Shown piece by piece: positions 28,001 through 53,275 of a stretch of 64,000 nucleotides of DNA (position 1 is its first letter; every line of letters begins with the position of its first letter). The notes under the pieces were generated by a model that worked only from the letters and a program-made list of their open reading frames with translations, was not told where the DNA came from and searched no databases. The stretch lies in NCBI GenBank assembly GCA_038064895.1, contig JBBTSA010000002.1, positions 8,942 through 72,941 of the forward strand. The letters run 5' to 3'. Made by a program: the position numbers and the translations under genes. This stretch comes from Patescibacteria group bacterium. GTDB lineage: Bacteria; Patescibacteriota; Microgenomatia; Daviesbacterales; UBA10151.

Positions 28001-28024
28001 CCCATATGATATACTAATCCCTCT

Positions 28025-28317: not shown

Positions 28318-28493
28318 GTTAAGACTTAATATTGTCTGTATTTATCATGTTTTCCTATATCAATAAAAAGTACTTGTGATTCATCAATCCAGCTGCAGCC
28401 TTTCCAAAAGATCAAGGCCAATAATTGCCCCTATCGGTTAGTCTATGTCAATATGACATACATAAGATACAAGGCCTGCAGGTCTTGGATTTT

Positions 28494-29588
28494 CTAAATT
28501 TGGACTGGGAAGCGATCAAGAGGCTGTCCACTCCTTCTGAAAGTTATATCCTCCTTCCACTGGTTTAACTCAAAAACCGCATCAGTTAAGACTTTTTGGG
28601 CCCTTTGAGGCCCTTGGGTCCCCAAAATTTGCTCAAAGTAAGTTAAGGGTAAAAGTCTTTTAGCCCTTTCTTTAAAAGGATTGGCCAAAAGTTCCAAAAT
28701 CTGCATTTTCGCATCTTGAGATAACTTCAAAGCTAACTGACTACGAGCCTCCAAATCTGTAGCATCATCCCAACTCTTTTTAGTTTTGAATGCCTGAGAG
28801 TGCAAATTTATAACCCTATCTTCAGAGTAATTCCTGTGGGCTTCCAATCTTCTGTAACGAACCATAAGTGAAATGGCGATTTCATCAATTTCTCTCATTC
28901 TATCCAAAATGCTTCCGCCTGCCCTTTGTAAAGCAGCAAAGCGTTTGAATCTGTCATCTTCAGTAAACATCTCTTCCAAAGCCTGACCTGCCCCTTTTAA
29001 ATATGGATTGGTCGAACGATTCAGTCTGCTGGAAAGTGTGCGAAGAGGATCTATCCTAAAACCTAGAGAAATTGAGGGCGTAGGTTGTAAAAGGCCTCTT
29101 GTAGCCTCATCAATTAGCCTTCTTACATCAAAAACCCAATCTTTGTGGCCCCCAATTACCACAGTTTGCACAGTTTGGTCAAGTCCTTGGGCAAATTCCC
29201 TAAGGCCTAAAGGGGGCATAACTTCCTCTTCACCTGTTTCTTTTTCTTCTTCAACTACCTCCTCAATACCTAGGTAGCGTTTTATAATTCGTACATACTG
29301 ACGCATTGGGCGTTCAATGTCATCAAAGCCAGAGGGACCCCCTTGATGTGACAATACCCTGACCAATCTTTGGCCCTCTTCACTGCGCTGGGTCTTCCAA
29401 CGATGCAAAAAGCTTCTGATATTACCCTCCTCATCAATCCCTATGTACCCTCGGCCATAATTTGGATGGCCCTGTCTTTCAATAGGATCGATAATCCTCA
29501 TTATCAAAGAGGGTTTTGTATTTGGCCAATTAAGCACTTGGAGAGGCTCTAATGGAGGTCTTTCAAATCTTGGTCTTTCTTCCTGCAT
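28494..29588 (-). CDS. Hypothetical protein (364 aa), GC-richer, divergent from cNMP-binding gene
   Basis: Long ORF with an acidic stretch EEVVEEEKETGEEE and no recognisable domain. Composition differs from core genes. Confidence 0.5.
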   Translation of the reverse strand: MQEERPRFERPPLEPLQVLNWPNTKPSLIMRIIDPIERQGHPNYGRGYIGIDEEGNIRSFLHRWKTQRSEEGQRLVRVLSHQGGPSGFDDIERPMRQYVRIIKRYLGIEEVVEEEKETGEEEVMPPLGLREFAQGLDQTVQTVVIGGHKDWVFDVRRLIDEATRGLLQPTPSISLGFRIDPLRTLSSRLNRSTNPYLKGAGQALEEMFTEDDRFKRFAALQRAGGSILDRMREIDEIAISLMVRYRRLEAHRNYSEDRVINLHSQAFKTKKSWDDATDLEARSQLALKLSQDAKMQILELLANPFKERAKRLLPLTYFEQILGTQGPQRAQKVLTDAVFELNQWKEDITFRRSGQPLDRFPVQI

Positions 29589-29617
29589 GTTGTCATTATT
29601 TTACCAGAAAATAGAAT

Positions 29618-30883
29618 TTGCATCGTGGATTCAATTGTTTTAGAATTGGCATGAATATGAGTAATCCAGAATCCAAAGCAAACAGGTGGCGTGTGGCAGG
29701 AAACAGTATCAGCGAAAAAATACCTCTTAGCCCGGAAGGAATGATGCTGCAACCCGGTGAACCGAATAGATCTATTACTTATTTGTTGTATGTTAAAGAG
29801 CAAACAGTCTGTATTGCCCACCTTATACCCCCGTCTTTGCAACCAACCCATCTCCAAAGAGTCTCTTTAGGCCGTTTTTCTCCTTCTATCACCTCTTGGG
29901 TAGAACGGGATCTTGGAGGATACCGAGCAAGGTATCAAGTTTTGGTTGAACAAGCAAAGGGAGAATACTTCCTTGAGGTAAACAATTTAGGCACTGAACC
30001 TATTTCAGTTTATCCGGCTGAAGCAACTGTACAAACACCTAAGCAGCCGACATCTGAAACCGAATTAACCACTAATACGGCAAAATCCGCGCTTTCCAGG
30101 ACTTGGCCATTTTTAACTGACAGGCAAATTGAGATTTTCTCAGGAGAGCTTAAGGCAGAACACTACAAACGTGGTGAAGTAATCCTTCAGGAAGGTGATT
30201 CAGCCGAGCCCCCGAAAGATAAGATGTTTCTTGTTGCAAAAGGCAAGGTTGATGTTACTGTGGGAGGTAGTCATGAATCTTCAATAACTCCCCAAAGTCC
30301 GGCTCCATATTTTGGTGAGAGAGCACTAATAACTAAAGAGCCCAGAAATGCAACAGTAATGGTAAGTGAAGAGAATGAAGAAGTACTCCTCTTTTCATTT
30401 AGTGGTGATAGCCTAAATAAGTTGAAACAATTATCGCCAGATTTAAAAAGCTTAATAGACTTAGTTATAAAAATCCGAGACGGCCAGAGAGTAACTGCAT
30501 ATGATTTGGCAGAAGCCATCAGGCTTCCAATAGCAATTCAAACTTCCTTTAAGTATGCACATAATTTTCTTTCTCGATTCTTAGATCTAGAAGGTTCATC
30601 TGACTACTATATCCAAGCGGCAAATAATGCTGGTCAGCAAACCGCTGCTGCAGAAAATTTGTTAATTGCCTGTGGCTATCTTGTAAGCGAATACCCTGGA
30701 CAAGGCAAATTCCCAGAAGTTATTGGTGAGGTTAAACGTCTTATTAGATTGGCAACCCAGCATTATGAACGGGCTAACAAACTACATGAGGCCGATACTT
30801 TAAGAGTTATTGAAGAGGAGTCAAACCTGGTTAAAATTGTAACTGTTTTAGCAGCTCAATATGTAGCCCAGCAAACTAATTAG
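29618..30883 (+). CDS. Cyclic-nucleotide-binding (CAP-family) domain protein with FHA-like N-terminal region
   Basis: 421 aa. cNMP-binding signature ...GEVILQEGDSAEP...FLVAKGKVDV...YFGERALITKEPRNATV. N-terminal GRFSPS...EVNNLGTEPISVY is FHA-like (tentative). Start codon uncertain. Confidence 0.55.
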   Translation: MHRGFNCFRIGMNMSNPESKANRWRVAGNSISEKIPLSPEGMMLQPGEPNRSITYLLYVKEQTVCIAHLIPPSLQPTHLQRVSLGRFSPSITSWVERDLGGYRARYQVLVEQAKGEYFLEVNNLGTEPISVYPAEATVQTPKQPTSETELTTNTAKSALSRTWPFLTDRQIEIFSGELKAEHYKRGEVILQEGDSAEPPKDKMFLVAKGKVDVTVGGSHESSITPQSPAPYFGERALITKEPRNATVMVSEENEEVLLFSFSGDSLNKLKQLSPDLKSLIDLVIKIRDGQRVTAYDLAEAIRLPIAIQTSFKYAHNFLSRFLDLEGSSDYYIQAANNAGQQTAAAENLLIACGYLVSEYPGQGKFPEVIGEVKRLIRLATQHYERANKLHEADTLRVIEEESNLVKIVTVLAAQYVAQQTN

Positions 30884-31035
30884 AAATTCACCTTAATTCT
30901 TGCAGACTAATACCTTCCAACCCTTCAATAGATTCAGGGTAAACATAGTGGTTCGACAGGGATTTTCTGGAATCGGCATACGTACAAGATACTACACTGG
31001 GGTATTGAATTCAAACGCTTTGTAATTGTAATACT

Positions 31036-31075
31036 CTGAATTCTTTCTGTAATAATTTCCAACATAGTTTACACT
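31036..31075. repeat. ~40-bp direct repeat (copy 1) flanking two tiny membrane-peptide genes
   Basis: ctgaattctttctgtaataatttccaacatagtttacac resembles 31517-31556 (cgaattttctctataataacttctaacaaagtttacta). Confidence 0.45.
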
Positions 31076-31171
31076 TCGACTACTTCGACTTCGCTCAGTA
31101 CAGGTTCGCTCAGTGCAAGCCAGGGCCTGCAAGGTATTACCTTTCGGCACCATGTAGGCCAATAGAAGAAT

Positions 31172-31282
31172 TTAATGTTTAGATTTACTTGGTTTGGAGA
31201 AAACAGAATAAACAACAGCAAAAGCAATTACTACTAAGGCAAAAGCAATTAGAGCTAAACTATTGACTTCCCAGAAATTCAT
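31172..31282 (-). CDS. 36-aa hydrophobic peptide (small membrane protein)
   Basis: rc translation MNFWEVNSLALIAFALVVIAFAVVYSVFSKPSKSKH. ATGA overlap with the upstream small membrane protein gene. Confidence 0.35.
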   Translation of the reverse strand: MNFWEVNSLALIAFALVVIAFAVVYSVFSKPSKSKH

Positions 31283-31482
31283 TGTAATTCCTTTCTTAAC
31301 CTATATCCAAAGTATAAAGAAAGTATACCAGCCAGGGTATCTGCTGTCAATACGACCACTTTAGAAGAAGAATCTATACCTGGAAAGATCGGTGCAACCA
31401 ATGCCAAACCGAACCAAAATACGGAAAAATTAATAAAGAAATCCGCCAAGACTGAAATTAAATCTGAATCAATTTGTTTCAC
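31279..31482 (-). CDS. Small membrane protein (67 aa)
   Basis: Two hydrophobic helices (FFINFSVFWFGLALVAPIF, LAGILSLYFGY). Confidence 0.4.
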   Translation of the reverse strand: MKQIDSDLISVLADFFINFSVFWFGLALVAPIFPGIDSSSKVVVLTADTLAGILSLYFGYRLRKELQ

Positions 31483-31516
31483 TAACCATTAATTTACCAT
31501 ATTGCTTAAAATAGTT

Positions 31517-31556
31517 CGAATTTTCTCTATAATAACTTCTAACAAAGTTTACTAAT
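31517..31556. repeat. ~40-bp direct repeat (copy 2)
   Basis: See 31036-31075. Confidence 0.45.
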
Positions 31557-31579
31557 CCCTGCTAGAAAATATGAATATT

Positions 31580-32251
31580 TTAAAAATTAACTCTTATTCT
31601 TGCAGTATCCAGAAATCCTAATGTTCCATCCGATGTTTTTGCCTGCAAAATATAAGTTTTACTGCCTGAAGAAAGGGTAAAAGTTTGGGATGAAGAAGTA
31701 GCAGAGGTTGTAGAAGTTGTTGTTGCTTCTGAAGAAACTGCAGATCCCGAGCTGTATAAACGTGCATAAAGTGTACCCCCCGGCTGATTTAGCCTCATGT
31801 TAACCTCAAGCTGCATGTTTTTGTAACCCGGATACTGGGATGGATCCAAACTGATCTGAAATGTATTTAAGCTTACCCAGTTTGTGTCAGAAATCTGCCC
31901 CCCTGAACCCAAAGGGATATAGACTGTGGAACTGGATGTTGTAGAAGCGGGAGCAGGAGTTGCATCTTCCAGGCTTGTCACTCTTTCTTTAAGTTCGGTT
32001 AAAGAAGCCTCCAGTGTTTTTATTCTTGAATCCAAAGATGCATCGGCAGTTGGCTTTGGAACTTTATCCTCAGGACGCTTGACTTTATCCTCTAAAGATG
32101 GTCCGGGCAAGCTTTGAGGCACTTCAACAGGCTCCTCCACACTTTGAGTTTGAGAAGTTTCCAGGCTCTTTTTTGCTGCAAAAAACCGGAAATATCCCAA
32201 AGCTCCAAGTATTAAAAGAGCAACCAGTATAAAAGGCATAAATTTTAGCAT
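31580..32251 (-). CDS. Membrane-anchored Ser/Thr-rich hypothetical protein
   Basis: 223 aa. N-terminal TM, coiled-coil (IKTLEASLTELKERVTSLE), C-terminal Ser/Thr-rich beta region. Confidence 0.45.
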   Translation of the reverse strand: MLKFMPFILVALLILGALGYFRFFAAKKSLETSQTQSVEEPVEVPQSLPGPSLEDKVKRPEDKVPKPTADASLDSRIKTLEASLTELKERVTSLEDATPAPASTTSSSTVYIPLGSGGQISDTNWVSLNTFQISLDPSQYPGYKNMQLEVNMRLNQPGGTLYARLYSSGSAVSSEATTTSTTSATSSSQTFTLSSGSKTYILQAKTSDGTLGFLDTARIRVNF

Positions 32252-32252
32252 G

Positions 32253-32861
32253 TTAGTTAAATTTAAAACTCTCTATGATTTTATCTCCTCCCTCCATTAT
32301 TTTAAATAGAAACATCCTGCCGTCTTTTGGGATTAATATAAGTTTTGGCTTGCCCGGAGAATAAGATACAATTGCTGATTTGGTTAATTGGCCGCTTATG
32401 GTTGCATCCAGGCTAGGTTCTATTTGGCTTTTTCGGATGTCATATACTCCCCAGAAAAACGGGTAATACCAAAAGTCTTTATACCATTTTTGCGCTTCCG
32501 TTTTTTCAGGATTCTCAAATACCCATAACATAAAAGGGACTGCTTGGAACTGGTCTTCTGTTAAATCCGCATTTTTGGGTTTTACAAGTACTCCTTTTAC
32601 AAATTTAGGAGGCTCATAAGTTACATAATATTTAAAGTTTTTCCTGTACTGTGTTTTTGTCCGTTTTGAATACTCCTCTTCAGATTCAAATACAGCCTCA
32701 AAATCTTCAGGATACCTAAAAGAGAATTTAAGCTTGGAATCCTCATAAGTTGAATCCGTTTTGAAGCTTTTGGGTGAAGAAAGTGGAGCCTGTTTAGGCT
32801 GGCTAAAATACCAGAATCCACCCAGAATAACCACCAGGATTAGAACAGCCTTGAGCAGCAT
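32253..32861 (-). CDS. Membrane-anchored hypothetical protein
   Basis: 202 aa. N-terminal TM LLKAVLILVVILGGFWYF. Aromatic-rich extracytoplasmic domain. Confidence 0.45.
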   Translation of the reverse strand: MLLKAVLILVVILGGFWYFSQPKQAPLSSPKSFKTDSTYEDSKLKFSFRYPEDFEAVFESEEEYSKRTKTQYRKNFKYYVTYEPPKFVKGVLVKPKNADLTEDQFQAVPFMLWVFENPEKTEAQKWYKDFWYYPFFWGVYDIRKSQIEPSLDATISGQLTKSAIVSYSPGKPKLILIPKDGRMFLFKIMEGGDKIIESFKFN

Positions 32862-32893
32862 ATATTAATCATATCATAATTTGATTCGGACTG

Positions 32894-32922
32894 TTGACAG
32901 AATTACCGAAATTCTGTAAAAT
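32894..32922 (+). promoter_or_regulatory. Sigma-70-like promoter TTGACA-17-TAAAAT for the AbrB/PIN pair
   Basis: ttgaca 32894-99, 17-nt spacer, taaaat 32917-22, about 10 nt before the ATG at 32933. Confidence 0.5.
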
Positions 32923-32932
32923 AGAAAATAAT

Positions 32933-33187
32933 ATGCAAACTACTTTTGAAGAAATTATTAAAATCCAACCAAGAGGAGTTTTTACCATACCTAAAAAGCT
33001 GCGGATAAATTTAGGGATCTCTGATAATAGTCTGGTTAGACTTAAGGAGGAAAGAGGCAGGCTGCTTATAGAACCTGTTAGGACCTTACCATACCCTGTA
33101 CGAAGTTATACCAAACAGGATATAGATGAGTTTATAGAATTTGACCAAAAACTTACTAAAACTTTGAAAGCAAAAGGAATATTGTAA
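32933..33187 (+). CDS. AbrB/SpoVT-type antitoxin
   Basis: MQTTFEEIIKIQPRGVFTIPKKLRINLGI is the AbrB-type swapped-hairpin signature. The upstream track start at 32894 lies inside the promoter. Confidence 0.6.
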   Translation: MQTTFEEIIKIQPRGVFTIPKKLRINLGISDNSLVRLKEERGRLLIEPVRTLPYPVRSYTKQDIDEFIEFDQKLTKTLKAKGIL

Positions 33188-33622
33188 GTGCCAAAGGATC
33201 CTCCCCTAATACTATTTAATGCCTCAGTGATTTTGGCAGGGATAAAATCTCCTCTAGGTGGTTCTGCTAAGCTGTTATCTTGGAGCAAGCAGGGAAAAGT
33301 AATTGGTTTAGTAAGTGAGATTATTGTTGATGAAGCGCTAAGGAATGCAACTAGGATTCATGTAAAACCTCAACATATCAATAGGCATTTAAAAAGTTTG
33401 AAAGTATGTTACTCTCCTAAAGCTCAAACAGTGGCTAAATTTGAAAAAATTGTAAAAGATTTGGGAGATGCTCATGTTTTAGCATCAGCAGAGGAAGAAA
33501 AAGCCCAATTTTTGGTAACTTTGGATAAAAAGCATCTTTTGATATTGCAAGGTGAAATTAAAAAGTTTAAAATTGTTTCTCCGGGCCAGTTAATTGAAGT
33601 CTTATCAAGTATCCAAAACTAG
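33188..33622 (+). CDS. PIN-domain toxin
   Basis: 144 aa, GTG start directly after the antitoxin stop. C-terminal DAHVLASAEEEKAQFLVTLDKKH is PIN-like. Confidence 0.55.
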   Translation: MPKDPPLILFNASVILAGIKSPLGGSAKLLSWSKQGKVIGLVSEIIVDEALRNATRIHVKPQHINRHLKSLKVCYSPKAQTVAKFEKIVKDLGDAHVLASAEEEKAQFLVTLDKKHLLILQGEIKKFKIVSPGQLIEVLSSIQN

Positions 33623-33654
33623 CTGCAAAGGTAAGGTTTGTGAAGCTAAATTAT

Positions 33655-35124
33655 TTATCTGACCGCAGCGAAGTTTAGCTCAAGGAAATCCCTTGCACGC
33701 AACGCTTTTATAGCTGCAGCTGCTGTCACACTGTCAAACTGTCCATAGGCAATTGCTCTTAATGCTTCAAACGGATATAAAAGTCTGACATTTTGCAAAT
33801 CAACTTTTGTGCTTCTTTTGAAAACTTCCCAGTCTGTAGCTCCATACATCACCTCAGGCATCATTCGGGCAACTCCTGTGTTAACAAACAACCTTCCTAG
33901 GTGATAATCAACTGGCAGGCCATTATCTTTTCCGCTACGAATAGCTTCAGTCATAAATCTTCCATGCTGGAAGCGATATCCTTCAGCAAAAACCATTTGT
34001 TCTCCTTCGTTTTGTGCTGCCATACCAATTCTACTGATTCTTAAAATATCATTTGCAAGAAGGTGCCTTGCTATGGCAGTTAAAGTAAAAGGGTCATTTA
34101 TGTCTGGAATCCTTGAGAAGAATTCTCCCAAACTTAAAAATGCAAGTCGCATCTTTTCTGAAACTTCCAAATCTTGTGGTCCAAATGCATCTGAGGTAGT
34201 ATCCAGGCTAAAATAGCTTGCCTCTGATGCCTCAAAGGTTGGATCTTGAGGAATTTTTCCCATATCTTTAATATTTTCAGCTCTAAGCAATCCTGTTTCA
34301 TCTGATGCTTCTTCAACTGCTCTTTTTAAAACCGGCACATCAGTGAATTTCGCCTGAAAACCTCTTTTCTCTCCACCAAGTCTTGGGCTATAGAAACCTC
34401 TTGAAGTTTCCAGCAACCACCCTCCCACATTTGGCCTATATGTTTGCGCCAGTAAAAGTCTTGGTTCCATACCAAACTGCGGTGCTCTTACAGTTACATC
34501 AAAAACAGTACCGTCAAACCCACTGTCTGAGTTTGCATTGAAGACCATAGGCTTTTGCACTGTTTCACCATTCGGTTCTAGCACATTAAAGATAACTACT
34601 GTAAAAAATCTTTCGTTTACGGAAACTATATCAGCAATATCTACAACTCTTTCTGCCTCTGCATTAACGGTGGGCGGCAATGGCTTTAAATGTAATTCTG
34701 CTAATTTCTGATTGATGCTTTGTACGGTAGTATCCGCTCGGAGAATATCACGAGGTACGGGAAAATTACTTTGCGCTCCCCTTACAAATGGAACATAGAT
34801 GTTATTCATTGCAGCAGCTTCTCTTGTCTGGAAAAAGGTCCAAAAAGCACCCCTGGCGCCTGGTTTTACCTCACCTGTATCTGGATCTTGAGTATCTGGG
34901 CTAAATTGTGCTGGTAGCCTAACTAAGTGAAGTCCTTCGCTCCCTAACACTACAACCTCTTCCGCACCAAGTATTCCAATCTCCCCTTGTGTTACATCAC
35001 CAAGTCCCTCAAGGGTATAAGGATGAGCTAAATTATGGCGTGCGAGCACGCTATTTATCGGATCAAGTCTCTCTCTTGTTTCTTGAGCTTGAAGAACATC
35101 TCTTTCTATACCATTTCCAGTCAT
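33655..35124 (-). CDS. Hypothetical protein (489 aa), GC-richer orphan
   Basis: Long ORF with no recognisable motif. Composition resembles the 28.5-30.9 kb pair. Confidence 0.5.
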   Translation of the reverse strand: MTGNGIERDVLQAQETRERLDPINSVLARHNLAHPYTLEGLGDVTQGEIGILGAEEVVVLGSEGLHLVRLPAQFSPDTQDPDTGEVKPGARGAFWTFFQTREAAAMNNIYVPFVRGAQSNFPVPRDILRADTTVQSINQKLAELHLKPLPPTVNAEAERVVDIADIVSVNERFFTVVIFNVLEPNGETVQKPMVFNANSDSGFDGTVFDVTVRAPQFGMEPRLLLAQTYRPNVGGWLLETSRGFYSPRLGGEKRGFQAKFTDVPVLKRAVEEASDETGLLRAENIKDMGKIPQDPTFEASEASYFSLDTTSDAFGPQDLEVSEKMRLAFLSLGEFFSRIPDINDPFTLTAIARHLLANDILRISRIGMAAQNEGEQMVFAEGYRFQHGRFMTEAIRSGKDNGLPVDYHLGRLFVNTGVARMMPEVMYGATDWEVFKRSTKVDLQNVRLLYPFEALRAIAYGQFDSVTAAAAIKALRARDFLELNFAAVR

Positions 35125-35213
35125 AAGTTAATTTTTGGATATTATCAAAATTTATAGTGCCTGTCAACCCTCTCTTTACACCTTGCATAAAAATATTCTA
35201 CTATATTTATACA

Positions 35214-46256: not shown

Positions 46257-46273
46257 TCCAATACCACCCAGCC

Positions 46274-46302
46274 TCAGCCACAAAAAATACAACAACAAAT
46301 TA
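46274..46302 (+). repeat. att-like copy 3 (CAGCCACAAAAAATACAACAACAAATTAG)
   Basis: In-frame SATKNTTTN* again. Preceded by ACCACCCAGCCTC, a 13-mer that recurs at 51786-51798. Confidence 0.65.
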
Positions 46303-46327
46303 GCCAAGTTTAAGTCCTGCCAATTTT

Positions 46328-47211: not shown

Positions 47212-47372
47212 ATAGGTCCTTATACATATATTTTACCATAATTGATACCTAGAAGGTATATTTTTTTCTGTTTATTTCTATAGCCATAACCTTAATATCC
47301 CTAAGCAGAAAACCAGCTTTTTGGGATATCTGTTTATCGGCCTGAATAAACTCAAAGCTATCTAATAGATCT

Positions 47373-47597
47373 TCAATTAATCTCTTCTTCTGTTCTATCC
47401 GACCATATTCCTCTGGTTTCGTCAACTAATTTTTTGATCTTTTCCTTTTTATCTGCTTCATCGCTAATAGGTTGAAGTTTCACTTTTACTTCTCTATCTT
47501 TTTTTATATACACAGGTTCACCAGTAGAAACCACCATATCGACAAGGTTAAAGAAATTGTTTCTTACCTCAGTTGCTGTAATAATATTTTTAGCCAT
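47373..47597 (-). CDS. Phd/YefM-family antitoxin (apparently orphan)
   Basis: 74 aa. ITATEVRNNFFNLVDMVVSTGEPVYIKKDRE is Phd/YefM-like. Downstream lies only a 42-codon start-less remnant (EDLLDSFEFIQADKQISQKAGFLLRDIKVMAIEINRKKYTF). Confidence 0.6.
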   Translation of the reverse strand: MAKNIITATEVRNNFFNLVDMVVSTGEPVYIKKDREVKVKLQPISDEADKKEKIKKLVDETRGIWSDRTEEEIN

Positions 47598-47688
47598 GAC
47601 CCTATTTTACAAAAGTATGTACACAATATCAATACTTCTACTTAGACTACAGATTGACTTCAATCTAATTTTATGACCACAATAAATT

Positions 47689-48186
47689 GTGAGACAAAAA
47701 CTGCTTATAGTAGGTTACATTACTTTGCTCATCACCATTCCTATTACTTTTTATTTATTTAAAGATCAAATCAGATCTAGCTTTCTTAAACCTAAAGTTT
47801 CAATCCAGCCAAAACTTATTAGAGAAACTACAATCGCTGAGGTTGCAGCAAAGTCCCACCCCAGCCTCTTTTATGCAGATTTGGAATATGATCCGAATAC
47901 AGAAGCAGTAGCGTTAAGAGAAACATCTGTAGGTCGCGGTGACCCTCCATCACTTTTTCCTGATAAACCACCCGATGATAATAATCGTTTATCTTTCAAG
48001 GTGGAAGTTGTGTCAAAGGAAAATATTGTCCTTCAAAGCGGCTGGTATTCTGATTATAAACAAAAAGTAAAGCCAAAAGAGGGTTTGCTTAGATTCTCTG
48101 TGGTAACAGGGTATGAACCCGGAGCTATTGTAAAACTCTATTATCCTAATGAGAGTAAGCTTATCTGGCTTGGGAAAATACAATGA
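47689..48186 (+). CDS. Membrane-anchored hypothetical protein (165 aa), first gene of the second surface-protein cassette
   Basis: N-terminal TM LLIVGYITLLITIPITFYLF. Overlaps the downstream giant gene (ATGA). Confidence 0.45.
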   Translation: MRQKLLIVGYITLLITIPITFYLFKDQIRSSFLKPKVSIQPKLIRETTIAEVAAKSHPSLFYADLEYDPNTEAVALRETSVGRGDPPSLFPDKPPDDNNRLSFKVEVVSKENIVLQSGWYSDYKQKVKPKEGLLRFSVVTGYEPGAIVKLYYPNESKLIWLGKIQ

Positions 48187-50663
48187 TTAAAATTTTAATT
48201 TTTTGTTTTGCATTTCTACTTGCAACTTTTGCGTTTACTGGGTCCATTGCTGCACAACAAACAACTAGGCAATATATTGTAAGACCATATTTAGTAATCC
48301 CTTCTGACTGGAATACACCGGAAACTCTTGAACAAATCCCAACCTTTAAACAAGATATCTTACAAGCTTTAGAAGAAGTACAAACTTGGTATGCAGAAAA
48401 CGCAAATGGTAAAACTTTTAATCTTGATGAAGAAGTTCGGGTTGTTTTCCCTCAAACAGCAGTTGTAGAAAGGCGTTTAGGAAATAGTAATATTGAGGAT
48501 TTAGTGCCTAACGAGGAAAATGGAGTAGTAAACACTAATTGGATTGTAGGTTTATGGTCAGGAAGTGCTTTGGGAACTGGAGCTGGAAACCAACTTTCTT
48601 CCATAGGCAATGCCCGTTTAAGCTTTGATCAATTATTGGATTTGCATAATGTTGAAATTAAGGAAGGAATAAGTTATAGAGAAAATGCTATAAAAATACT
48701 TACCCATGAGTTAGGTCATGCTTTTGGTCTAGTTAATGCAGGATATGCCCTTAGTCATCCTTGCACTCAAATAAGTAAAAACGAATGTAGAGATGGTGCT
48801 CCACAACCCTTACCCCAACCTGAAGAATGGAATGGTAGTGTAATGGGGCAAGCTTTTACGAGCTTTTCCAGAGTGAAATTTAATAACTCAATACACAATC
48901 CTGAATTATGGAAATTATATGGAAGTGCATTTGTTAATCCTCAACGCGAGCCTGCTCCTTCTCCTTTCGGCGCAGCAAAACCGCCATTTCGACCCACTAT
49001 TTTTTATGTTAACCCTCAACCAGTAGAAGTTGGGTCTGTTTTGGAAATACACGGGAACAGTTTTGGTGAAAATAAAGGAGAAGTAAATTTATTCCAACGC
49101 TTTTATTCTACTCGAGAAAATAAAGTAGAACAGATAGTTGAATGGTCAGACCAACTTATCAAGTTTGTGGTAGAAAAACCAGCAGATATGATATGCATTA
49201 TCGTTCCTAGCCCAACCGAACCAAATACAACAATCGGTGAATGCGCAAACATTAAAATAGAAGGGGTACCACTTCCCCCAATCCTTACTATAAATTTATC
49301 AACCACCTGTGGAGAGCCGAAAAGGCCTTTACCTATATTTTCGGATTACAAAAAACTTCTAGGTGTCGAACTTAATAAACTTGAAGATAATGGCCAAGAA
49401 ACTCAAAAAATGAACTGGAGTATAAATGCCACTGCCAAACTACAAGCACTTTTCCTCATTGGGTCAGAATCCCCAGTTGCATTAACAGAAGGAAATCATG
49501 TGCTTAGGGCACCGGTATTGGAAGATGTATCTCCTACGCCGGAGATTGTGCCTATTGAAATAACAGATATCACAAAGTCACAAGAATTGACAGCTAATTT
49601 CCATTATCCAGAGTGTCCTGTGCAACCTAGTCCTACGCCGACTCCTACTTCCACTGCTACCCCTTCAGCTACTCCTATAGGAACCTTTGTTACTGGTTCT
49701 GCCTCATGCACAAAACCTCATAACCATTTAACTAAGGATCACTTTGATGTATCCATTGATATGAATATCCCTCCCCAAAAATCAGACCTAAGCGTCTGGA
49801 CAACGATTACTGATGATCGAAGTGGATCCACAGGACTTCTATCATCTGGTGGGGCCGGAAAAAGTCATACCGAACTTCATGACTCTTTCAGTTCAATAAG
49901 AGGACCAGGCACTACCATGAGTTTTACACCTAATACTAAATATACTGTTAAAGTCTGGGCTGCTCCTTATACTACTGAAAACCCCAAGTTTGATAATCTT
50001 ATTACCCAAACTACATTTATAACTGGTGAGTGCGGAGAACTAGAACAAGTTATTATTTCAAATTATCCTGATTTTAGAGAGAATAATACTCCAATTGATG
50101 AAGGAAGTGAGACAAAAGTTATTGAAAATCCTAGTGAAAATCAGGAAATTAAATGGCAAGATTCAACCTTAAGTGAAGATCAACCAGTATATGTGAGGGA
50201 AGTGTATGAAGACGAAACAGTCAAGGATTATCAGGCTGATTTAGATAATGGAGAAAAAACCCTAGTTGGAAATGTACAAATTGAAGAAGTTGAGCAGCCT
50301 GTACAAGAGAAAAGGGTTACAAAAATATCTATAGAAGATTCTGTTATCTGGTCAAAAGAAGAAGGAAGCTTTCCTGTTAACTTAAATTTAAATGACCAGC
50401 AGGTTTACACTATCTGGGTATATTATTCAGATGATACATCAAAACCTTTCAGTTTAACTTTTCAAAAATCTGTCCAGGAAGAACCGTCTACCCAAGAGCC
50501 CGAATCCACAGATTGTCTTACTTCATGCGGGATAGAAAACGGCCTTAACTGTACTGACCAGGAAAAAGCAGATAAAGAGTGTGCAGATTCCTGGGAGGAT
50601 GATTCTACCTGCAGTTTTACTGATTATGGTCCACCCGAGAGAGGAGACGGATGTATACCATGA
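48183..50663 (+). CDS. Large secreted protein (826 aa) with HEXXH zinc-metalloprotease-like motif, Ig-like/IPT-like domain, Thr/Pro linker and Cys-rich C-terminal module
   Basis: Signal peptide MIKILIFCFAFLLATFAFTGSIAAQQ. ILTHELGHAFGL (HEXXH). TIFYVNPQPVEVGSVLEIHGNSFG (IPT-like, tentative). PSPTPTPTSTATPSATP. C-terminal CLTSCGIENGLNCTDQEKADKECADSWEDDSTCSFTDYGPPERGDGCIP. Confidence 0.6.
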   Translation: MIKILIFCFAFLLATFAFTGSIAAQQTTRQYIVRPYLVIPSDWNTPETLEQIPTFKQDILQALEEVQTWYAENANGKTFNLDEEVRVVFPQTAVVERRLGNSNIEDLVPNEENGVVNTNWIVGLWSGSALGTGAGNQLSSIGNARLSFDQLLDLHNVEIKEGISYRENAIKILTHELGHAFGLVNAGYALSHPCTQISKNECRDGAPQPLPQPEEWNGSVMGQAFTSFSRVKFNNSIHNPELWKLYGSAFVNPQREPAPSPFGAAKPPFRPTIFYVNPQPVEVGSVLEIHGNSFGENKGEVNLFQRFYSTRENKVEQIVEWSDQLIKFVVEKPADMICIIVPSPTEPNTTIGECANIKIEGVPLPPILTINLSTTCGEPKRPLPIFSDYKKLLGVELNKLEDNGQETQKMNWSINATAKLQALFLIGSESPVALTEGNHVLRAPVLEDVSPTPEIVPIEITDITKSQELTANFHYPECPVQPSPTPTPTSTATPSATPIGTFVTGSASCTKPHNHLTKDHFDVSIDMNIPPQKSDLSVWTTITDDRSGSTGLLSSGGAGKSHTELHDSFSSIRGPGTTMSFTPNTKYTVKVWAAPYTTENPKFDNLITQTTFITGECGELEQVIISNYPDFRENNTPIDEGSETKVIENPSENQEIKWQDSTLSEDQPVYVREVYEDETVKDYQADLDNGEKTLVGNVQIEEVEQPVQEKRVTKISIEDSVIWSKEEGSFPVNLNLNDQQVYTIWVYYSDDTSKPFSLTFQKSVQEEPSTQEPESTDCLTSCGIENGLNCTDQEKADKECADSWEDDSTCSFTDYGPPERGDGCIP

Positions 50664-50923
50664 AAGAATATATTAAAAATTTAAGGATCAGCAAAAAACA
50701 AGCTATTATTACTTTGATTCTGCTTTTGGGTATTGTCTTTGGTGTGATTTTAGTGCAAAAACCCCAGATTTTTAAAGGAAGGGCAGATGTTGATATATCT
50801 TCTGCTCTAAATATCCAAGGAACAGGTGGTGAGGCGGTTAAGTGTGTACAACAGACCTGTACTACCAAAGCAGAAGAAGTAACTATTGAAGTCAAAGATC
50901 CTGATATATTCCTTAAGGATTAA
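50651..50923 (+). CDS. Small single-pass membrane protein, paralogue of 46014-46256
   Basis: 90 aa. ...GIVFGVILVQKPQIFKGRADV then a Cys pair (KCVQQTC). Overlaps the end of the giant gene by 13 nt. Confidence 0.55.
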   Translation: MYTMKEYIKNLRISKKQAIITLILLLGIVFGVILVQKPQIFKGRADVDISSALNIQGTGGEAVKCVQQTCTTKAEEVTIEVKDPDIFLKD

Positions 50924-50985
50924 CCGGTACAACCGAAGCCTCTAATATTTATGGAGATATAATTTTTACGTTCGCCATAGGCGAA

Positions 50986-51046
50986 GGCAAGGTTCTGACA
51001 ACTGAGCAGTAGAATCTCTAATACTGCGAAGGTGTCATGGTCCTTA
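50986..51046. other. Conserved ~60-nt element (copy B), homologous to 520-579. Overlaps the 3' end of a PIN gene.
   Basis: ggcaaggttctgacaactgagcagtagaatctctaatactgcgaaggtgtcatggtcctta. Preceded by the perfect hairpin ttcgccataggcgaa. Confidence 0.35.
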
Positions 51047-51398
51047 TATCCTTCATTGGAAAATCGGAAGTGTTGTTTGTGACAAGGGTCAAATGGTTAA
51101 GTTTTGCCTGGGCAGCAAGGAAATAGTCTAAAAGCTGTGTTCTTTTGGTTCTCAAAAACTTTTTTCTATATGCTGCTGCTAGTTTAGCAGTGTCAAGGTC
51201 TATAGGCAAAATTGGAAAGCTATCTATTAACTTTTGGAATTGTTTCTCTTCCTTTTCTGTGGCTTGAGACAAAAATTCGCCGACAACTACTACAGATAAA
51301 TAAAGCTCCTTCTCTGCTACTGCTTTTTTAAAAAAGCTTTGACTCGGTTCTTCTCCTATTAATGCTCTAATAATAACATTGGTATCTAAAAGATACAT
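51018..51398 (-). CDS. PIN-domain toxin (VapC)
   Basis: 126 aa. MYLLDTNVIIRAL N-terminus, ...TLVTNNTSDF C-terminal motif. 1-nt-adjacent to the upstream RHH gene. Confidence 0.7.
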   Translation of the reverse strand: MYLLDTNVIIRALIGEEPSQSFFKKAVAEKELYLSVVVVGEFLSQATEKEEKQFQKLIDSFPILPIDLDTAKLAAAYRKKFLRTKRTQLLDYFLAAQAKLNHLTLVTNNTSDFPMKDIRTMTPSQY

Positions 51399-51668
51399 CT
51401 AAAGAATTTTCCTGTCGCGCCTTATTTCCCTTTGCCACTTATTAATATCTACTCCTGCCCAGCCACTTTCCTTAGGGTCTATTGAGCCGCCAAGCTCATC
51501 GGCTAATTTTTTAAGCTCTTCTTTTTCTTTTCTCTCCTCCTCTAGTCTTTTTCTAGCAGCTTTTCTTAAATACTCAGCAAGGGATTCACCACTGGAAGCT
51601 CTTTGACGGTCTATTTCAGCTCTTAAATCTTTTGGTAAATAAATTTGAGTTCTTATAGCTTGATGCAT
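51399..51668 (-). CDS. RHH-type antitoxin (VapB-like)
   Basis: 89 aa. TQIYLPKDLRAEIDRQRASSGESLAEYLRKAARKRLEE (beta-strand plus two helices), charged C-terminal tail. Confidence 0.6.
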   Translation of the reverse strand: MHQAIRTQIYLPKDLRAEIDRQRASSGESLAEYLRKAARKRLEEERKEKEELKKLADELGGSIDPKESGWAGVDINKWQREIRRDRKIL

Positions 51669-51675
51669 ACATCAT

Positions 51676-51705
51676 TAATATACATCACTAGAGTTATTTT
51701 GTCAA
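51676..51705 (-). promoter_or_regulatory. Promoter TTGACA-17-TATATT for vapB-like gene, overlapping inverted repeat CAATAGT...ACTATTG
   Basis: On the minus strand: ttgacaaaataactctagtgatgtatatt then ~10 nt to the ATG. The inverted repeat at 51702-51730 is a likely operator. Confidence 0.5.
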
Positions 51706-51774
51706 TAGTTCGATTTCACTCACTATTGATACTGAGCATACTTGAGGTGAGCGTAGTCGAACCAGTCGAATGTA

Positions 51775-52164
51775 TCAAGATAGCACCACCCAGCCTCTTA
51801 GGTCTTTTTTTGGAATCTTTATAGGAGTGGTTAAAAATTGGTCAACTTCCCCTATAAAGATTAAAGTGCCATATTTTGCATTAGATTTAGCTTCCCAATA
51901 CTCTTTACTTTGGGCAATTCTCTTTCCATATCTTTTTCTTAAGTCATTCATATCAACCTCCTCAAGCCCATCATAAAAGACTACCTTTTTTACAAGAAAT
52001 TGACCAACAGGATCCTGACCAGATGGTTTTATATAAACCAAATCCCCGGAAGAAATTTGACCAAAAGGAGGATCTTTCCTTCTTGAAAACCTGCTTTCTA
52101 TGGTCTTTTGACCGGTAAGTATCTTCTCTCCCCCATCCCCCTTAAAAATAGCCAGGTGTTTCAT
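51775..52164 (-). CDS. ASCH (PUA-like) domain protein
   Basis: 129 aa. MKHLAIFKG...EKILTGQKTIESRF N-terminus resembles the ASCH beta-barrel start. Tentative. Confidence 0.45.
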   Translation of the reverse strand: MKHLAIFKGDGGEKILTGQKTIESRFSRRKDPPFGQISSGDLVYIKPSGQDPVGQFLVKKVVFYDGLEEVDMNDLRKRYGKRIAQSKEYWEAKSNAKYGTLIFIGEVDQFLTTPIKIPKKDLRGWVVLS

Positions 52165-52170
52165 GAAATA

Positions 52171-53205
52171 TTATCCACCTATCCTGCAGGCAGCTATGCT
52201 TCCTAAAAGTCCTCTGCCTGCCCCAAAACCTAAAAGCAGGGTGATTTTCCCAGGATCCAGTCTATCCTCCTGGATCAATTTCACCAGGGCCTTTGGAATT
52301 GAGGCAGAGGAAAAATTGCCGTCCTTAAAATCTTCAACTACCTGACCTGCTTTAAAACTTGGGGTCAGTCTTTCCGCGAGTGCTCTCACCATTCTACCTG
52401 AACCCTGGTGAGGCACAATATACCCAACCTCATTTGGATCTATCCCATACTTTGCCATAAACTCCCCTAATGCTTGCGGTATCCTTTCCAAAACTTGTCT
52501 GTACACTGCCGGCCCTTCCTGTCTAAATTTACCATCATGAGATCTATCCACAGGCTCATTAATGAAGGGTTCTCTGACCAATTGCCAGTTAATTGGCATT
52601 CTGATCAGGTTGGTAACTTTATCAATCATCCTACTTTCTGCTGCCAGAATATTAAAATTTACCCCCAGTATAAAACTTAAACCTGCTGCCCCATCAGAAA
52701 AAATAGTTTGAGATAAAGAAGGATCTCTCTTAATTGCTTCCTCCTCTCTTAAATCAACCAGTTTGTCTGAATATTTTTCTGATGCTAAAAAAAATACTCT
52801 CCTGCCCCGGAAAGTGTCCTCGTTTTGTTTCAAAAATACTAGGCCTCTGACAAAACCGGAGCAGGCAGCATATATATCTAATCTTCCTCCTGTCAGATGA
52901 AGTTTTCTTAATACTTCTGTTGCTACATTCACACCGATTGGGAAACTAGTGGAAACTAAAATTAAATCCACCTGATTTTCTGCTAAAACATCTTCAGCCA
53001 CTTTTAAGGCCATATCCACCACTGTCTCATCTTCTGCGGCATGAAACCGGCGCTCAATCCCGGTCTTTTGCAAAATAGATTGGGCTGTTAAAAACTGGCC
53101 GGAACTTACTTCTACCCTCCAGCTTTCAATTGTTTCGTTGGTTAAAACTAAAGCAGGCTTATAAACACCGTAGCTAACAGATGGTCTGGATTCAGCTAAA
53201 ACCAT
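52171..53205 (-). CDS. 3-oxoacyl-ACP synthase III (FabH)-like / thiolase-fold condensing enzyme
   Basis: 344 aa. Catalytic triad contexts DIYAACSGFVRGL (Cys), VPHQGSGRM (His) and GNFSSASIPKAL (Asn). Confidence 0.65.
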   Translation of the reverse strand: MVLAESRPSVSYGVYKPALVLTNETIESWRVEVSSGQFLTAQSILQKTGIERRFHAAEDETVVDMALKVAEDVLAENQVDLILVSTSFPIGVNVATEVLRKLHLTGGRLDIYAACSGFVRGLVFLKQNEDTFRGRRVFFLASEKYSDKLVDLREEEAIKRDPSLSQTIFSDGAAGLSFILGVNFNILAAESRMIDKVTNLIRMPINWQLVREPFINEPVDRSHDGKFRQEGPAVYRQVLERIPQALGEFMAKYGIDPNEVGYIVPHQGSGRMVRALAERLTPSFKAGQVVEDFKDGNFSSASIPKALVKLIQEDRLDPGKITLLLGFGAGRGLLGSIAACRIGG

Positions 53206-53275
53206 ATACTTGTTGCAATTATATCACCTACTCTGTTATACTTGACAAAAGGCCTCAAAATATGAGGCTTTTTTA

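What the first reader, a model, noticed from the sequence alone, without database searches (positions are those of the whole stretch)
28318..53275. Conserved rpmG-tRNA-Trp / secE-nusG-rplK neighbourhood split by ~25 kb of accessory, compositionally heterogeneous DNA
In many bacteria tRNA-Trp lies directly upstream of secE-nusG-rplKAJL and after rpmG. Here rpmG-tRNA-Trp is at 28.0-28.3 kb and secE starts at 53.3 kb.

The intervening 25 kb holds GC-richer orphan genes, three TA/Abi modules, a GH1 with a transporter, and the giant-protein island, with only one clearly core gene (the class-A PBP).

This suggests serial island integration next to tRNA-Trp, a classical integration hotspot. No direct repeat of the tRNA 3' end was spotted by eye.
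Basis: partly seen in the sequence, partly recalled or inferred. Interest (0 to 1): 0.55.

Follow-up and report, generated by a model that had tools for sequence, protein, structure and literature searches.

The report
Old gene-order break, insertions elsewhere
The 25-kb gap between tRNA-Trp and secE in this groundwater Daviesbacteria genome is an ancient, conserved rearrangement later swollen by insertions, mainly where two converging genes once overlapped, and it is not a tRNA-targeted island, so it is an ordinary though tidy case of genome plasticity.

Summary
The landmarks are real. rpmG and tRNA-Trp end at 28317, and secE-nusG-rplK-rplA starts at 53276.

The split is not a recent island at the tRNA. 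In the 11 Daviesbacteria relatives where both ends are in view, tRNA-Trp lies 7.2-9.4 kb from secE. The gap holds the same ordered backbone: o223, GH1, EamA, PBP1A, ASCH. Sister lineages fill their gaps with housekeeping genes.

No tRNA-Trp 3' repeat, integrase or phage gene is present. GC3 and codon usage match the housekeeping flanks.

The window's extra ~16.5 kb sits in several slots between backbone genes. The largest, 11.2 kb, lies between PBP1A and ASCH. In compact relatives these two genes converge and overlap by 26 nt. The window keeps three direct copies of that junction unit, one matching a relative's overlap 22/22. They split the insert into segments of 0.33, 5.3 and 5.5 kb. Three relatives carry different cargo at the same point, each flanked by the duplicated overlap.

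One five-gene cargo module recurs at an unrelated site in another Daviesbacteria genome.

Verdict: an integrase-free chromosomal hotspot of a known kind, with an unusually clear footprint. The entry mechanism is inferred, not shown.

The parts
27849..28317 (+). Left landmark: tRNA-Thr(TGT), tRNA-Thr(GGT), rpmG (28025-28195), tRNA-Trp(CCA) (28244-28317)
   Evidence: ARAGORN; Rfam; ORF; rpmG-tRNA-Trp linkage seen in relatives
28318..31579 (.). Slot 1 (tRNA-Trp to o223), 3262 bp vs median 481 bp in relatives. Holds orphan 364 aa (28494-29588, -), cNMP-binding protein (29618-30883, +) and a small TM ORF (31279-31482, -)
   Evidence: Pfam; slot sizes; no homologs in 42 related loci; no tRNA repeat
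31580..32251 (-). Backbone gene o223 (223 aa, secreted/TM, no informative Pfam family)
   Evidence: Homologs at the same position in 12 relatives, E 1e-70 to 4e-28
32252..35156 (.). Slot 2 (o223 to GH1), 2905 bp vs median 809 bp. Holds o202 (-), MazE/AbrB + PIN_3 TA pair (32894-33622, +) and orphan 489 aa (33655-35124, -). These replace the VanW-like ~223-aa gene that 10 relatives carry here
   Evidence: Pfam
35157..37420 (+). Backbone GH1 glycosidase (35157-36533) and EamA transporter (36530-37420)
   Evidence: Pfam; GH1 56-81% and EamA 32-57% identical, syntenic in relatives
37421..38440 (.). Slot 3 (EamA to PBP1A). Holds orphan o232 (37422-38120, -) and a GC-rich palindrome (38359-38445). 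Eight relatives carry an unrelated ~320-aa (+) gene here
38192..40576 (+). Backbone class-A PBP (transglycosylase + transpeptidase). The ORF starts at 38192; the real start is probably ATG 38441 (inference)
   Evidence: Pfam; 54-65% identical in relatives; homologs align from about residue 100; palindrome inside the 5' extension
40520..40576 (+). Junction unit copy 1: the present PBP1A 3' end (..AQAPIQSGQAATKNTITN*)
40577..40908 (.). Segment A (332 bp) with a 63-aa TM ORF (40686-40877, -)
40909..40963 (+). Junction unit copy 2: a degenerate, frameshifted copy of the PBP1A 3' end (85% over 47 nt)
   Evidence: the 26-nt motif has 3 hits vs 0 expected
40964..46253 (+). Segment B (5290 bp): membrane PP2C phosphatase with Ig-like domain (40990-43671), secreted 780-aa protein (43675-46017) and an 80-aa TM protein (46014-46256)
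   Evidence: Pfam; PP2C893 has only itself as a full-length match; o80 is a paralog of o90
46254..46303 (+). Junction unit copy 3. 46254-46275 (TAATCCAATACCACCCAGCCTC) is a relic of the ancestral PBP1A/ASCH overlap. It encodes NPIPPSL on + and RGWVVLD* on -, and is followed by the tail motif (46277-46302)
   Evidence: 22/22 identical to the overlap of L001; only hit to the overlap consensus in the window
46304..51774 (.). Segment C (5471 bp): AbiEii (46328-46960, -) + DUF6922 (46909-47211, -); Phd (47373-47597, -) + a 58-aa toxin remnant (47249-47425, -); 165-aa, 826-aa HExxH protein and 90-aa TM protein (47689-50923, +); PIN (51018-51398, -) + RHH (51399-51668, -)
   Evidence: Pfam; PADLOC
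47689..51668 (.). Relocatable five-gene module inside segment C: o165 - o826 - o90 - PIN/RHH
   Evidence: All five are homologous to adjacent genes in L174 at an unrelated locus (E 2e-37, 5e-58, 2e-8, 7e-21, 2e-42). The three-gene core is also in L175
51775..52164 (-). Backbone ASCH-domain gene. Its 3' end carries the 13-nt core ACCACCCAGCCTC (51785-51797), which repeats 46263-46275
   Evidence: Pfam; present in 35/39 relatives
52171..53205 (-). FabH-like KAS-III gene in the ASCH-to-secE slot (1111 bp vs median 114 bp)
   Evidence: Pfam; absent from 35 GTDB relatives' slots but in the same slot in L170 at 50% identity
53276..55882 (+). Right landmark: secE, nusG, rplK, rplA
   Evidence: Pfam

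Best explanation
The interval has two layers.

Layer 1 is old and vertically inherited. Before the sampled Daviesbacteria diverged, the rpmG-tRNA-Trp / secE-nusG linkage was already separated by a block of about 7-8 kb. That block carries o223, (VanW-like), GH1, EamA, PBP1A and ASCH.

Layer 2 is gene turnover in the gaps between those backbone genes, with no recognisable mobile-element machinery.

The main entry point is the place where PBP1A (+) and ASCH (-) originally converged and overlapped by 26 nt. Each surviving insertion there left a copy of the overlap on both sides, so both genes keep a functional 3' end. In the window this happened at least three times. It produced three direct 'overlap + tail' units and three segments (0.33, 5.3 and 5.5 kb). 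The segments carry TA modules and 'giant surface protein + small TM protein' cassettes.

Shown: the backbone, the variable slots, the relic repeats, the relocation of one cargo module, and the absence of tRNA att sites and integrases.

Inferred: DNA entered by host recombination. That could be double crossover in flanking conserved genes after DNA uptake, or illegitimate or duplicative insertion filtered by selection for intact 3' ends. An element-encoded integrase is not required.
For: - Backbone: in 11 relatives with both ends in view the tRNA-Trp-to-secE gap is 7.2-9.4 kb (median 8.4), with the same ordered genes.
- Outgroups: Gottesman-type and Woese-type loci have their own conserved gap genes (NTP-transferase, YdjM, RNase HII, S21). 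tRNA-Trp abuts secE only in L051 and L063.
- Slot sizes, window vs median of relatives: 3262 vs 481; 2905 vs 809; 771 vs 961; 11198 vs 66; 1111 vs 114.
- Overlap: six compact relatives show a 26-nt PBP1A/ASCH overlap.
- Window footprint: three copies of the junction unit, where the 26-nt motif gives 3 hits vs 0 expected. The relic at 46254-46275 is 22/22 identical to the L001 overlap. A 13-nt perfect core flanks segment C.
- Replication in relatives: L003 (3.1 kb, one 1025-aa ORF), L004 (1.5 kb, four small ORFs) and L021 (0.85 kb, AbiEii+DUF6922) each have the overlap duplicated at both ends of different cargo.
- Cargo in relatives' slots: AbiEii, PIN, Fic, Phd, HepT/MNT, fn3/Laminin_G/dockerin giants and one IS200-type transposase, with no integrase.
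- Composition is native.
- The module o165-o826-o90-RHH-PIN sits at another locus in L174.
- dprA is present at 9563-10651, so DNA uptake and recombination are plausible.
- Integrase-free hotspots that diversify by recombination at flanking core genes are documented (PMC5635113).
Against: - No strain-level relative was found (best PBP1A identity 59-65%). No insertion event can therefore be dated or shown as a presence/absence polymorphism.
- 14 of 25 relatives with a full 10-kb view have gaps above 9.6 kb of unknown size, so the '8 kb backbone' comes from the compact subset.
- Eight of 11 relatives with inserts over 600 bp at PBP1A/ASCH show no detectable duplicated overlap.
- Some cargo classes recur at the same slot in relatives. 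AbiEii/DUF6922 lies next to ASCH in L017, L021 and L024. An o90-like gene is in L006. FabH-like is in L170. Part of the 'insert' may therefore be old and vertically inherited.
- The host-recombination mechanism is inferred, not shown.
Confidence: 0.72

Rival explanations
1. Site-specific serial integration at the PBP1A/ASCH overlap. The conserved overlap acts as an attachment site. Cassettes carrying a matching site are inserted one after another at the PBP1A 3' end by a recombinase encoded elsewhere in the genome or since lost. Each event supplies PBP1A with a new 3' tail and pushes older inserts rightwards.
For: - The observed order is exactly what tandem attL/attR accretion predicts: PBP1A-(unit)-A-(unit)-B-(unit)-C-(core)-ASCH, all in direct orientation.
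- The tail motif travels with the repeat and now encodes the PBP1A C-terminus.
- Three relatives have different cargo at the same point with flanking duplications.
- One cargo module is found at another locus elsewhere.
Against: - No tyrosine or serine recombinase in the window or in 58 slot ORFs of relatives.
- The duplicated stretch differs in position and length between loci (17-48 nt). That is unlike a fixed integrase core.
- The tail motif is absent from 2.27 Mb of related loci.
- The L174 copy of the module has no boundary repeats.
- Segment A is only 332 bp.
Confidence: 0.15
2. Vertical inheritance with differential loss. The ancestor already carried a large, cargo-rich region between PBP1A and secE. 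Compact relatives lost it by deletion between the repeated junction copies.
For: - FabH-like is in the same slot in L170, at a divergence similar to the backbone genes.
- AbiEii/DUF6922 lies beside ASCH in L017, L021 and L024 at about 30% identity.
- An o90-like gene follows a giant ORF in L006's slot.
- Codon usage is native.
Against: - 17 of 28 loci are compact, with a conserved dual-coding 26-nt overlap. That is hard to regenerate repeatedly by deletion.
- Cargo differs almost completely between relatives.
- PP2C893, o780 and o826 have no homolog in the 42 related loci.
- The o826 module sits at other loci in L174 and L175.
Confidence: 0.1
3. One reading: classical integrase-mediated genomic islands integrated serially into the 3' end of tRNA-Trp.
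For: - 3.3 kb of genome-specific DNA (orphan 364 aa, cNMP-binding protein) lies directly after tRNA-Trp.
- tRNA genes are common island targets (PMC5635113).
Against: - No tRNA-Trp 3' repeat in the window or beyond shuffle range in 28 relatives.
- No integrase or phage genes.
- Conserved backbone genes interrupt the interval from 31.6 kb onward.
- Synonymous composition is native.
- The split is ancestral and is filled with housekeeping genes in sister lineages.
Confidence: 0.03

Closest known systems
Integrase-free chromosomal hotspots / regions of genome plasticity flanked by core genes (Oliveira et al. 2017, PMC5635113)
   Same: - Conserved flanking genes, with different accessory content between the same flanks in related genomes.
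- Enrichment for defence/TA and surface functions.
- No recognisable mobile element.
- A plausible route through homologous recombination. That paper reports that fewer than half of hotspots encode an integrase and only 29% contain a tRNA or tmRNA gene.
   Different: - Here the comparison is between species or genera of an uncultured CPR lineage, not strains of one species.
- The recombination signal at the flanks was not tested.
- The insertion point is a dual-coding 26-nt convergent overlap whose duplication is still visible.
tRNA-linked genomic islands (integrase-mediated, with a direct repeat of the tRNA 3' end)
   Same: - Accessory DNA lies downstream of a tRNA gene.
- Segments are bounded by direct repeats of a gene's 3' end.
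   Different: - The repeated 3' end belongs to PBP1A/ASCH, not to tRNA-Trp.
- No integrase is present.
- No compositional signature is present.
- Conserved genes lie between the tRNA and the inserts.
Integrative elements that target the 3' end of protein-coding genes and restore it with element-borne sequence
   Same: - The target gene's 3' end is duplicated as direct repeats flanking the insert.
- The gene is kept intact with a new C-terminal tail.
- The tandem arrangement is compatible with serial accretion.
   Different: - No recombinase is present.
- Repeat boundaries vary between loci.
- Two converging genes share the target, so selection alone could explain why only duplicating insertions survive.
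Tycheposons and related cargo-carrying integrative elements of streamlined genomes (bioRxiv 10.1101/2020.12.28.424599; listed, abstract only read)
   Same: A small, streamlined genome whose variability is concentrated in a few islands.
   Different: I did not read the paper's element definitions, and no comparable machinery was detected here. This is a lead, not a tested comparison.

Membership tests
tRNA-linked genomic island | Insert begins immediately 3' of the tRNA gene and is contiguous | tested here: not met
   Only 28318-31579 is genome-specific next to tRNA-Trp. The conserved backbone genes o223, GH1, EamA, PBP1A and ASCH interrupt the interval.
tRNA-linked genomic island | Direct repeat of the tRNA 3' end at the distal boundary | tested here: not met
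   The 31-mer and 18-mer with up to 3 mismatches hit only the tRNA itself. The local-alignment best score of 14 is below the shuffle maximum of 16.
tRNA-linked genomic island | Element-encoded integrase or recombinase | tested here: not met
   Pfam on all ORFs of 58 aa or more in the interval found none. PHROGs found nothing relevant.
tRNA-linked genomic island | Atypical base composition or codon usage | tested here: not met
   GC3 and synonymous-codon distance inside match outside. The single tetranucleotide peak lies on giant proteins with normal GC3.
Chromosomal hotspot flanked by core genes | Same conserved flanking genes across related genomes | tested here: met
   PBP1A, ASCH and secE-nusG are conserved and syntenic.
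Chromosomal hotspot flanked by core genes | Variable gene content between those flanks in different genomes | tested here: met
   The PBP1A-to-ASCH slot ranges from 4 to 5695 bp and the ASCH-to-secE slot from 57 to 5395 bp, with largely unrelated ORFs.
Chromosomal hotspot flanked by core genes | Elevated homologous recombination in the flanking core genes | not testable with these tools
   This needs population or strain-level alignments. The closest relatives are only 55-65% identical.
Integrative element targeting a protein-gene 3' end | Direct repeats of the target 3' end flank the insert | tested here: met
   The window has units at 40520-40576, 40909-40963 and 46254-46303, plus the core at 51785-51797. 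L003, L004 and L021 show the same.
Integrative element targeting a protein-gene 3' end | Recombinase carried by the element | tested here: not met
   None in the window or in 58 slot ORFs of relatives. One IS200-type Y1 transposase is the only mobility gene found.
Integrative element targeting a protein-gene 3' end | Fixed crossover core shared by independent insertions | tested here: inconclusive
   The duplicated stretches overlap but differ in extent: 13 nt in the window's segment C, 17 nt in L004, about 26 nt in L021 and 39-48 nt in L003.
Integrative element targeting a protein-gene 3' end | Excision or circular intermediates | not testable with these tools
   This requires read-level data from the Hainich metagenomes.
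AbiE type IV TA system | AbiEii nucleotidyltransferase toxin | tested here: met
   PF08843 at E 3.9e-13 and PADLOC AbiEii models.
AbiE type IV TA system | AbiEi antitoxin upstream | tested here: not met
   The upstream partner matches DUF6922 (E 1.3e-15), not AbiEi, and has no PADLOC hit. The same pairing recurs in L009, L012, L017, L021 and L024.

The most novel reading that the evidence does not exclude
The conserved 26-nt convergent overlap of PBP1A and ASCH is a dedicated attachment site for an unrecognised cassette-insertion system in Daviesbacteria or other CPR bacteria. The system would be trans-acting or use a non-canonical recombinase. It would shuttle 'giant surface protein + small TM protein + TA' cassettes between chromosomal sites and rewrite the PBP1A C-terminus at each event.
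Probability: 0.12. Interest if true: 0.65.

Novelty: new member of a known kind. Interest (0 to 1): 0.33.

Why it matters
- It corrects a tempting misreading. A broken 'universal' gene neighbourhood next to a tRNA is not by itself evidence of a tRNA-targeted island. Here the break is old and lineage-defining.
- It shows that even sub-megabase CPR genomes without visible mobile elements concentrate gene turnover in a few slots between conserved genes. The cargo is toxin-antitoxin modules and fast-evolving surface proteins.
- The duplicated convergent overlap is a simple sequence footprint. It could be searched genome-wide to map insertion points in uncultured lineages.
- None of this is a new kind of system.

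Tried and rejected
- tRNA-Trp att search in the window and in 28 relatives: nothing beyond shuffle range.
- Metagenome scan centred on PBP1A to find close relatives. The best hit was 59% identical. Only L081 and L082 were orthologous loci, so it could not remove the 10-kb censoring of gap sizes.
- Exact-protein look-ups for insert-free variants in the same population: all assemblies show the same arrangement.
- Paralogy of the two secreted giants o780 and o826: not significant (E 0.11). Only the small partners o80 and o90 are paralogs (E 4e-8).
- Larger PBP1A or ASCH pseudogene fragments in the island: noise only.
- Tail motif in related loci: absent.
- Boundary repeats around the L174 copy of the module: none.
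- PHROGs on ten orphan or large proteins: only PP2C-domain hits to families of unknown function.
- o63 vs o67 small TM ORFs: not related.
- Homology of the toxin remnant next to Phd to a PIN: suggested by eye only, tblastn not significant.
- Assembly chimera: rejected by independent assemblies.

Full report
**Observation**

ARAGORN and Rfam place tRNA-Thr(TGT) at 27849-27920, tRNA-Thr(GGT) at 27928-28004 and tRNA-Trp(CCA) at 28244-28317. rpmG is the 56-aa ORF at 28025-28195. secE (53276-53476), nusG (53466-54245), rplK (54381-54809) and rplA (54944-55882) follow on the same strand. The interval is 24,958 bp.

- an orphan of 364 aa and a cNMP-binding protein
- a MazE/PIN_3 pair and an orphan of 489 aa
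- GH1 plus an EamA transporter
- a class-A PBP
- a membrane PP2C phosphatase of 893 aa, and secreted proteins of 780 and 826 aa
- AbiEii/DUF6922, Phd, and RHH/PIN
- an ASCH-domain gene and a FabH-like KAS-III gene

The window is contig CAYISO010000003.1 (GCA_964366195.1), from Hainich groundwater. Independent assemblies of other runs reproduce the FabH|secE junction and the internal island junctions at 99.9-100% identity. The arrangement is therefore real.

**Lineage and comparative frame**

nusG retrieves 80 loci from species-representative genomes. The best are Candidatus Daviesbacteria, followed by Gottesman-, Woese- and Woykebacteria. No relative closer than about 55-65% protein identity exists in the genome or metagenome collections.

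**The split is ancestral and has a conserved backbone**

In the 11 Daviesbacteria-type loci where both ends fall within the 10-kb flank, tRNA-Trp is 7.2-9.4 kb from secE (median 8.4 kb). The gap contains the same ordered genes: o223(-), GH1, EamA, PBP1A, ASCH(-).

Presence, corrected for the flank in view, is ASCH 35/39, PBP1A 26/32, GH1 24/27 and EamA 23/29. Fourteen of the 25 loci with a full 10-kb view have a gap above 9.6 kb of unknown size. Expansion is therefore common, and the '8 kb' figure describes the compact subset.

Outgroups have their own conserved gap genes. In Gottesman-type loci these are YdjM-like, a sugar nucleotidyltransferase and a ~600-aa protein. In Woese-type loci they are ribosomal protein S21 and RNase HII. 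tRNA-Trp abuts secE only in L051 and L063.

The textbook adjacency was thus lost long ago, in lineage-specific ways and with ordinary genes. That adjacency is common in bacteria is my own background knowledge. Within this data set it is seen only in those two loci.

**No support for tRNA-targeted integration**
- The last 31 or 18 nt of tRNA-Trp, with up to 3 mismatches, occur nowhere else in the window.
- A local-alignment search of the 3' 45 nt against the whole interval gives a best score of 14, below the shuffle maximum of 16. None of 28 relatives shows a convincing repeat either.
- No integrase, transposase or phage protein was found. The rest of the window contains no recombinase.

**Composition**

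The upstream 27 kb is plainly housekeeping: topA, clpB-like, dprA, PBP2, mreBC, pyrimidine genes, def and fmt. It serves as the native reference.
- The interval is 39.1% GC against 37.8% outside.
- For genes of 150 aa or more, GC3 is 0.307+/-0.038 inside and 0.283+/-0.044 outside.
- Synonymous-codon distance to the outside pool is 0.282 inside and 0.301 outside.
- The 'GC-richer orphans' (41-43%) are no richer than rplA, nusG or PBP1A.
- The one tetranucleotide outlier, at 40-46 kb (0.25-0.30 against at most 0.17 outside), coincides with PP2C893 and o780. Their GC3 is ordinary (0.306 and 0.228). I attribute the peak to amino-acid composition, which is an inference.

**Where the extra DNA is**

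| Slot | Window (bp) | Median in relatives (bp) |
|---|---|---|
| tRNA-Trp to o223 | 3262 | 481 |
| o223 to GH1 | 2905 | 809 |
| EamA to PBP1A | 771 | 961 |
| PBP1A to ASCH | 11198 | 66 (maximum 5695) |
| ASCH to secE | 1111 | 114 (maximum 5395) |

Backbone genes make up 5.7 kb (23%) of the interval.

Two slots show replacement and not simple insertion. Ten relatives carry a VanW-like ~223-aa (+) gene between o223 and GH1. Eight carry a ~320-aa (+) gene between EamA and PBP1A. Both are absent from the window, which has unrelated genes at those positions.

The FabH-like gene is absent from the 35 GTDB relatives. It sits in the same ASCH-to-secE slot in L170 at 50% identity, similar to backbone divergence, so it is shared subclade architecture.

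**The PBP1A/ASCH junction**

In six compact relatives PBP1A and ASCH converge and overlap by 26 nt. One strand encodes ..NP(T/I)(Q/P)P(N/S)L* and the other ..RGWVVLD*.

The window contains three direct copies of a 50-57-nt unit made of this overlap plus a tail that encodes ATKNT(I/T)TN*:
- 40520-40576, the working PBP1A 3' end
- 40909-40963, degenerate and frameshifted
- 46254-46303

The 26-nt tail motif has 3 matches in the window against 0 expected. The overlap part of copy 3 (46254-46275) is 22/22 identical to the L001 overlap. It is the only match to the overlap consensus in 64 kb. A 13-nt perfect core, ACCACCCAGCCTC, links copy 3 (46263-46275) to the functional ASCH 3' end (51785-51797).

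These units divide the 11.2 kb into three segments:
- A, 332 bp, with a 63-aa TM ORF
- B, 5290 bp, with PP2C893, o780 and o80
- C, 5471 bp, with AbiEii/DUF6922, Phd plus a toxin remnant, o165-o826-o90 and PIN/RHH

Three relatives replicate the pattern with different cargo. L003 has 3.1 kb holding a single 1025-aa ORF, with a 39-48-nt repeat (z 6.9). L004 has 1.5 kb holding four small ORFs, with 17 nt perfect. L021 has 0.85 kb consisting of exactly AbiEii+DUF6922, with about 26 nt repeated. Eight other relatives with inserts over 600 bp at this junction show no detectable repeat.

**Cargo**

The 58 ORFs in relatives' PBP1A-to-ASCH and ASCH-to-secE slots fall in the same classes as the window's:
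- TA components: AbiEii x3, PIN x3, Fic x2, Phd x2, HepT/MNT
- large fn3, Laminin_G and dockerin proteins
- two FabD-like acyltransferases, an MFS transporter, one IS200-type transposase and one KilA-N
- no integrase

PP2C893 has only itself as a full-length match in the indexed search. o826 has about 70 cluster representatives at E of 1e-10 or better.

The block o165-o826-o90-RHH-PIN is conserved gene for gene in L174 (E 2e-37, 5e-58, 2e-8, 7e-21 and 2e-42). L174 is a Daviesbacteria contig whose own ASCH-secE locus is L017. There the block lies between a glycosyltransferase and FBPase. The three-gene core also follows topA in L175. In the window the TA pair is inverted relative to the cassette. 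The L174 copy has no boundary repeats. At least this cargo is therefore a relocatable module.

**Interpretation**

The best-supported reading has two layers: an ancient, vertically inherited block, and slot-wise turnover without element-encoded machinery. This matches the integrase-free hotspots described by Oliveira et al. In that study fewer than half of hotspots encode an integrase, 29% contain a tRNA or tmRNA gene, and diversification by recombination at flanking core genes is proposed (PMC5635113).

The duplicated overlap has a simple functional rationale. Two genes share those 26 nt, so only insertions that leave each gene its own copy are viable. dprA in the window makes DNA uptake and recombination plausible. 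The route of entry remains an inference.

The main rival is true site-specific accretion at the overlap. Its strength is that the tandem unit-segment-unit order is exactly what serial attL/attR formation predicts. It lacks a recombinase, a fixed core, and any trace of the tail motif elsewhere.

Differential loss from a large ancestor explains some shared cargo: FabH-like, AbiEii/DUF6922 near ASCH, and o90-like in L006. It does not explain the prevalence of a conserved dual-coding overlap or the unrelated cargo in different genomes.

**Verdict**

This is a new example of a known kind of genome plasticity, with a clean footprint, in an under-studied lineage.

Noticed in passing
window 55889-57743; L001-L041 downstream of rplA: rplJ-rplL do not follow rplA. 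Instead a lysyl-phosphatidylglycerol-synthase-TM gene (-) and a dockerin-domain protein follow. This is conserved in 31 of 33 Daviesbacteria-type loci. The rplA-to-LPG-synthase spacer is itself variable, from -11 to 5463 bp.
   Followed up: partly
window 53466-53720: NusG carries an acidic, low-complexity N-terminal extension of about 85 aa (E/Q/S/T-rich). Relatives align only from residues 50-88 onward, so the extension is poorly conserved.
   Followed up: no
window 38359-38445 (also 27570-27620 and 31070-31145): Short GC-rich elements in an AT-rich genome. The one at 38359-38445 is a strong palindrome (DNA fold -24.5 kcal/mol, z -5.0, 0 of 200 shuffles as good). It lies inside the predicted 5' extension of the PBP1A ORF, which suggests the real start is ATG 38441. 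A 17-nt core, CCCGAGCTTGTCGAGGG, is identical at 27584 and 38373. The other two elements do not fold significantly.
   Followed up: partly
window 47689-50923 and 43675-46256; L174 9420-12412; L175 5338-8833; L006 2745-5023: A recurring cassette: a ~160-aa TM protein, then a 700-930-aa secreted protein (HExxH motif in o826, weak Reprolysin_5 hit), then an 80-97-aa TM protein. It is often followed by a PIN TA pair. o80 and o90 are paralogs (E 4e-8). The function is unknown.
   Followed up: partly
window 50510-50663 (o826 residues 776-826): The ~50-aa Cys-rich C-terminus of o826 recurs at 54-71% identity at the extreme C-terminus of otherwise different large proteins (P0196, P0202, P0212, P0213). 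It may be a sorting or anchoring module. o780 and PP2C893 also end in Cys-rich tails after P/T/E-rich linkers.
   Followed up: no
window 52171-53205; L170 653-1762; L172/L173 6001-7056; relatives' slots: A KAS-III (FabH-like) family is widespread on CPR-type contigs. In P0011's context it sits near an adh_short reductase and a fatty-acid desaturase. Two relatives carry FabD-like acyltransferases in the same variable slots. This seems notable because, to my knowledge, CPR bacteria are generally thought to lack fatty-acid synthesis.
   Followed up: partly
window 46909-47211 with 46328-46960; L009, L012, L017, L021, L024: AbiEii is consistently paired with a DUF6922 protein and not with a recognisable AbiEi antitoxin. 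DUF6922 may be the cognate antitoxin in this lineage.
   Followed up: partly
window 47249-47425: The 58-aa ORF overlapping the 3' end of Phd resembles, by eye, the middle of the PIN toxin that follows Phd in L006 (FxxIxxxxxIxxxAGxLxRDxK). It lacks both ends and is probably a decayed toxin. tblastn was not significant.
   Followed up: partly
window 9563-10651: A full-length DprA (DNA_processg_A plus the winged-helix domain) lies in the housekeeping flank. This is relevant to DNA uptake and recombination in this lineage.
   Followed up: no
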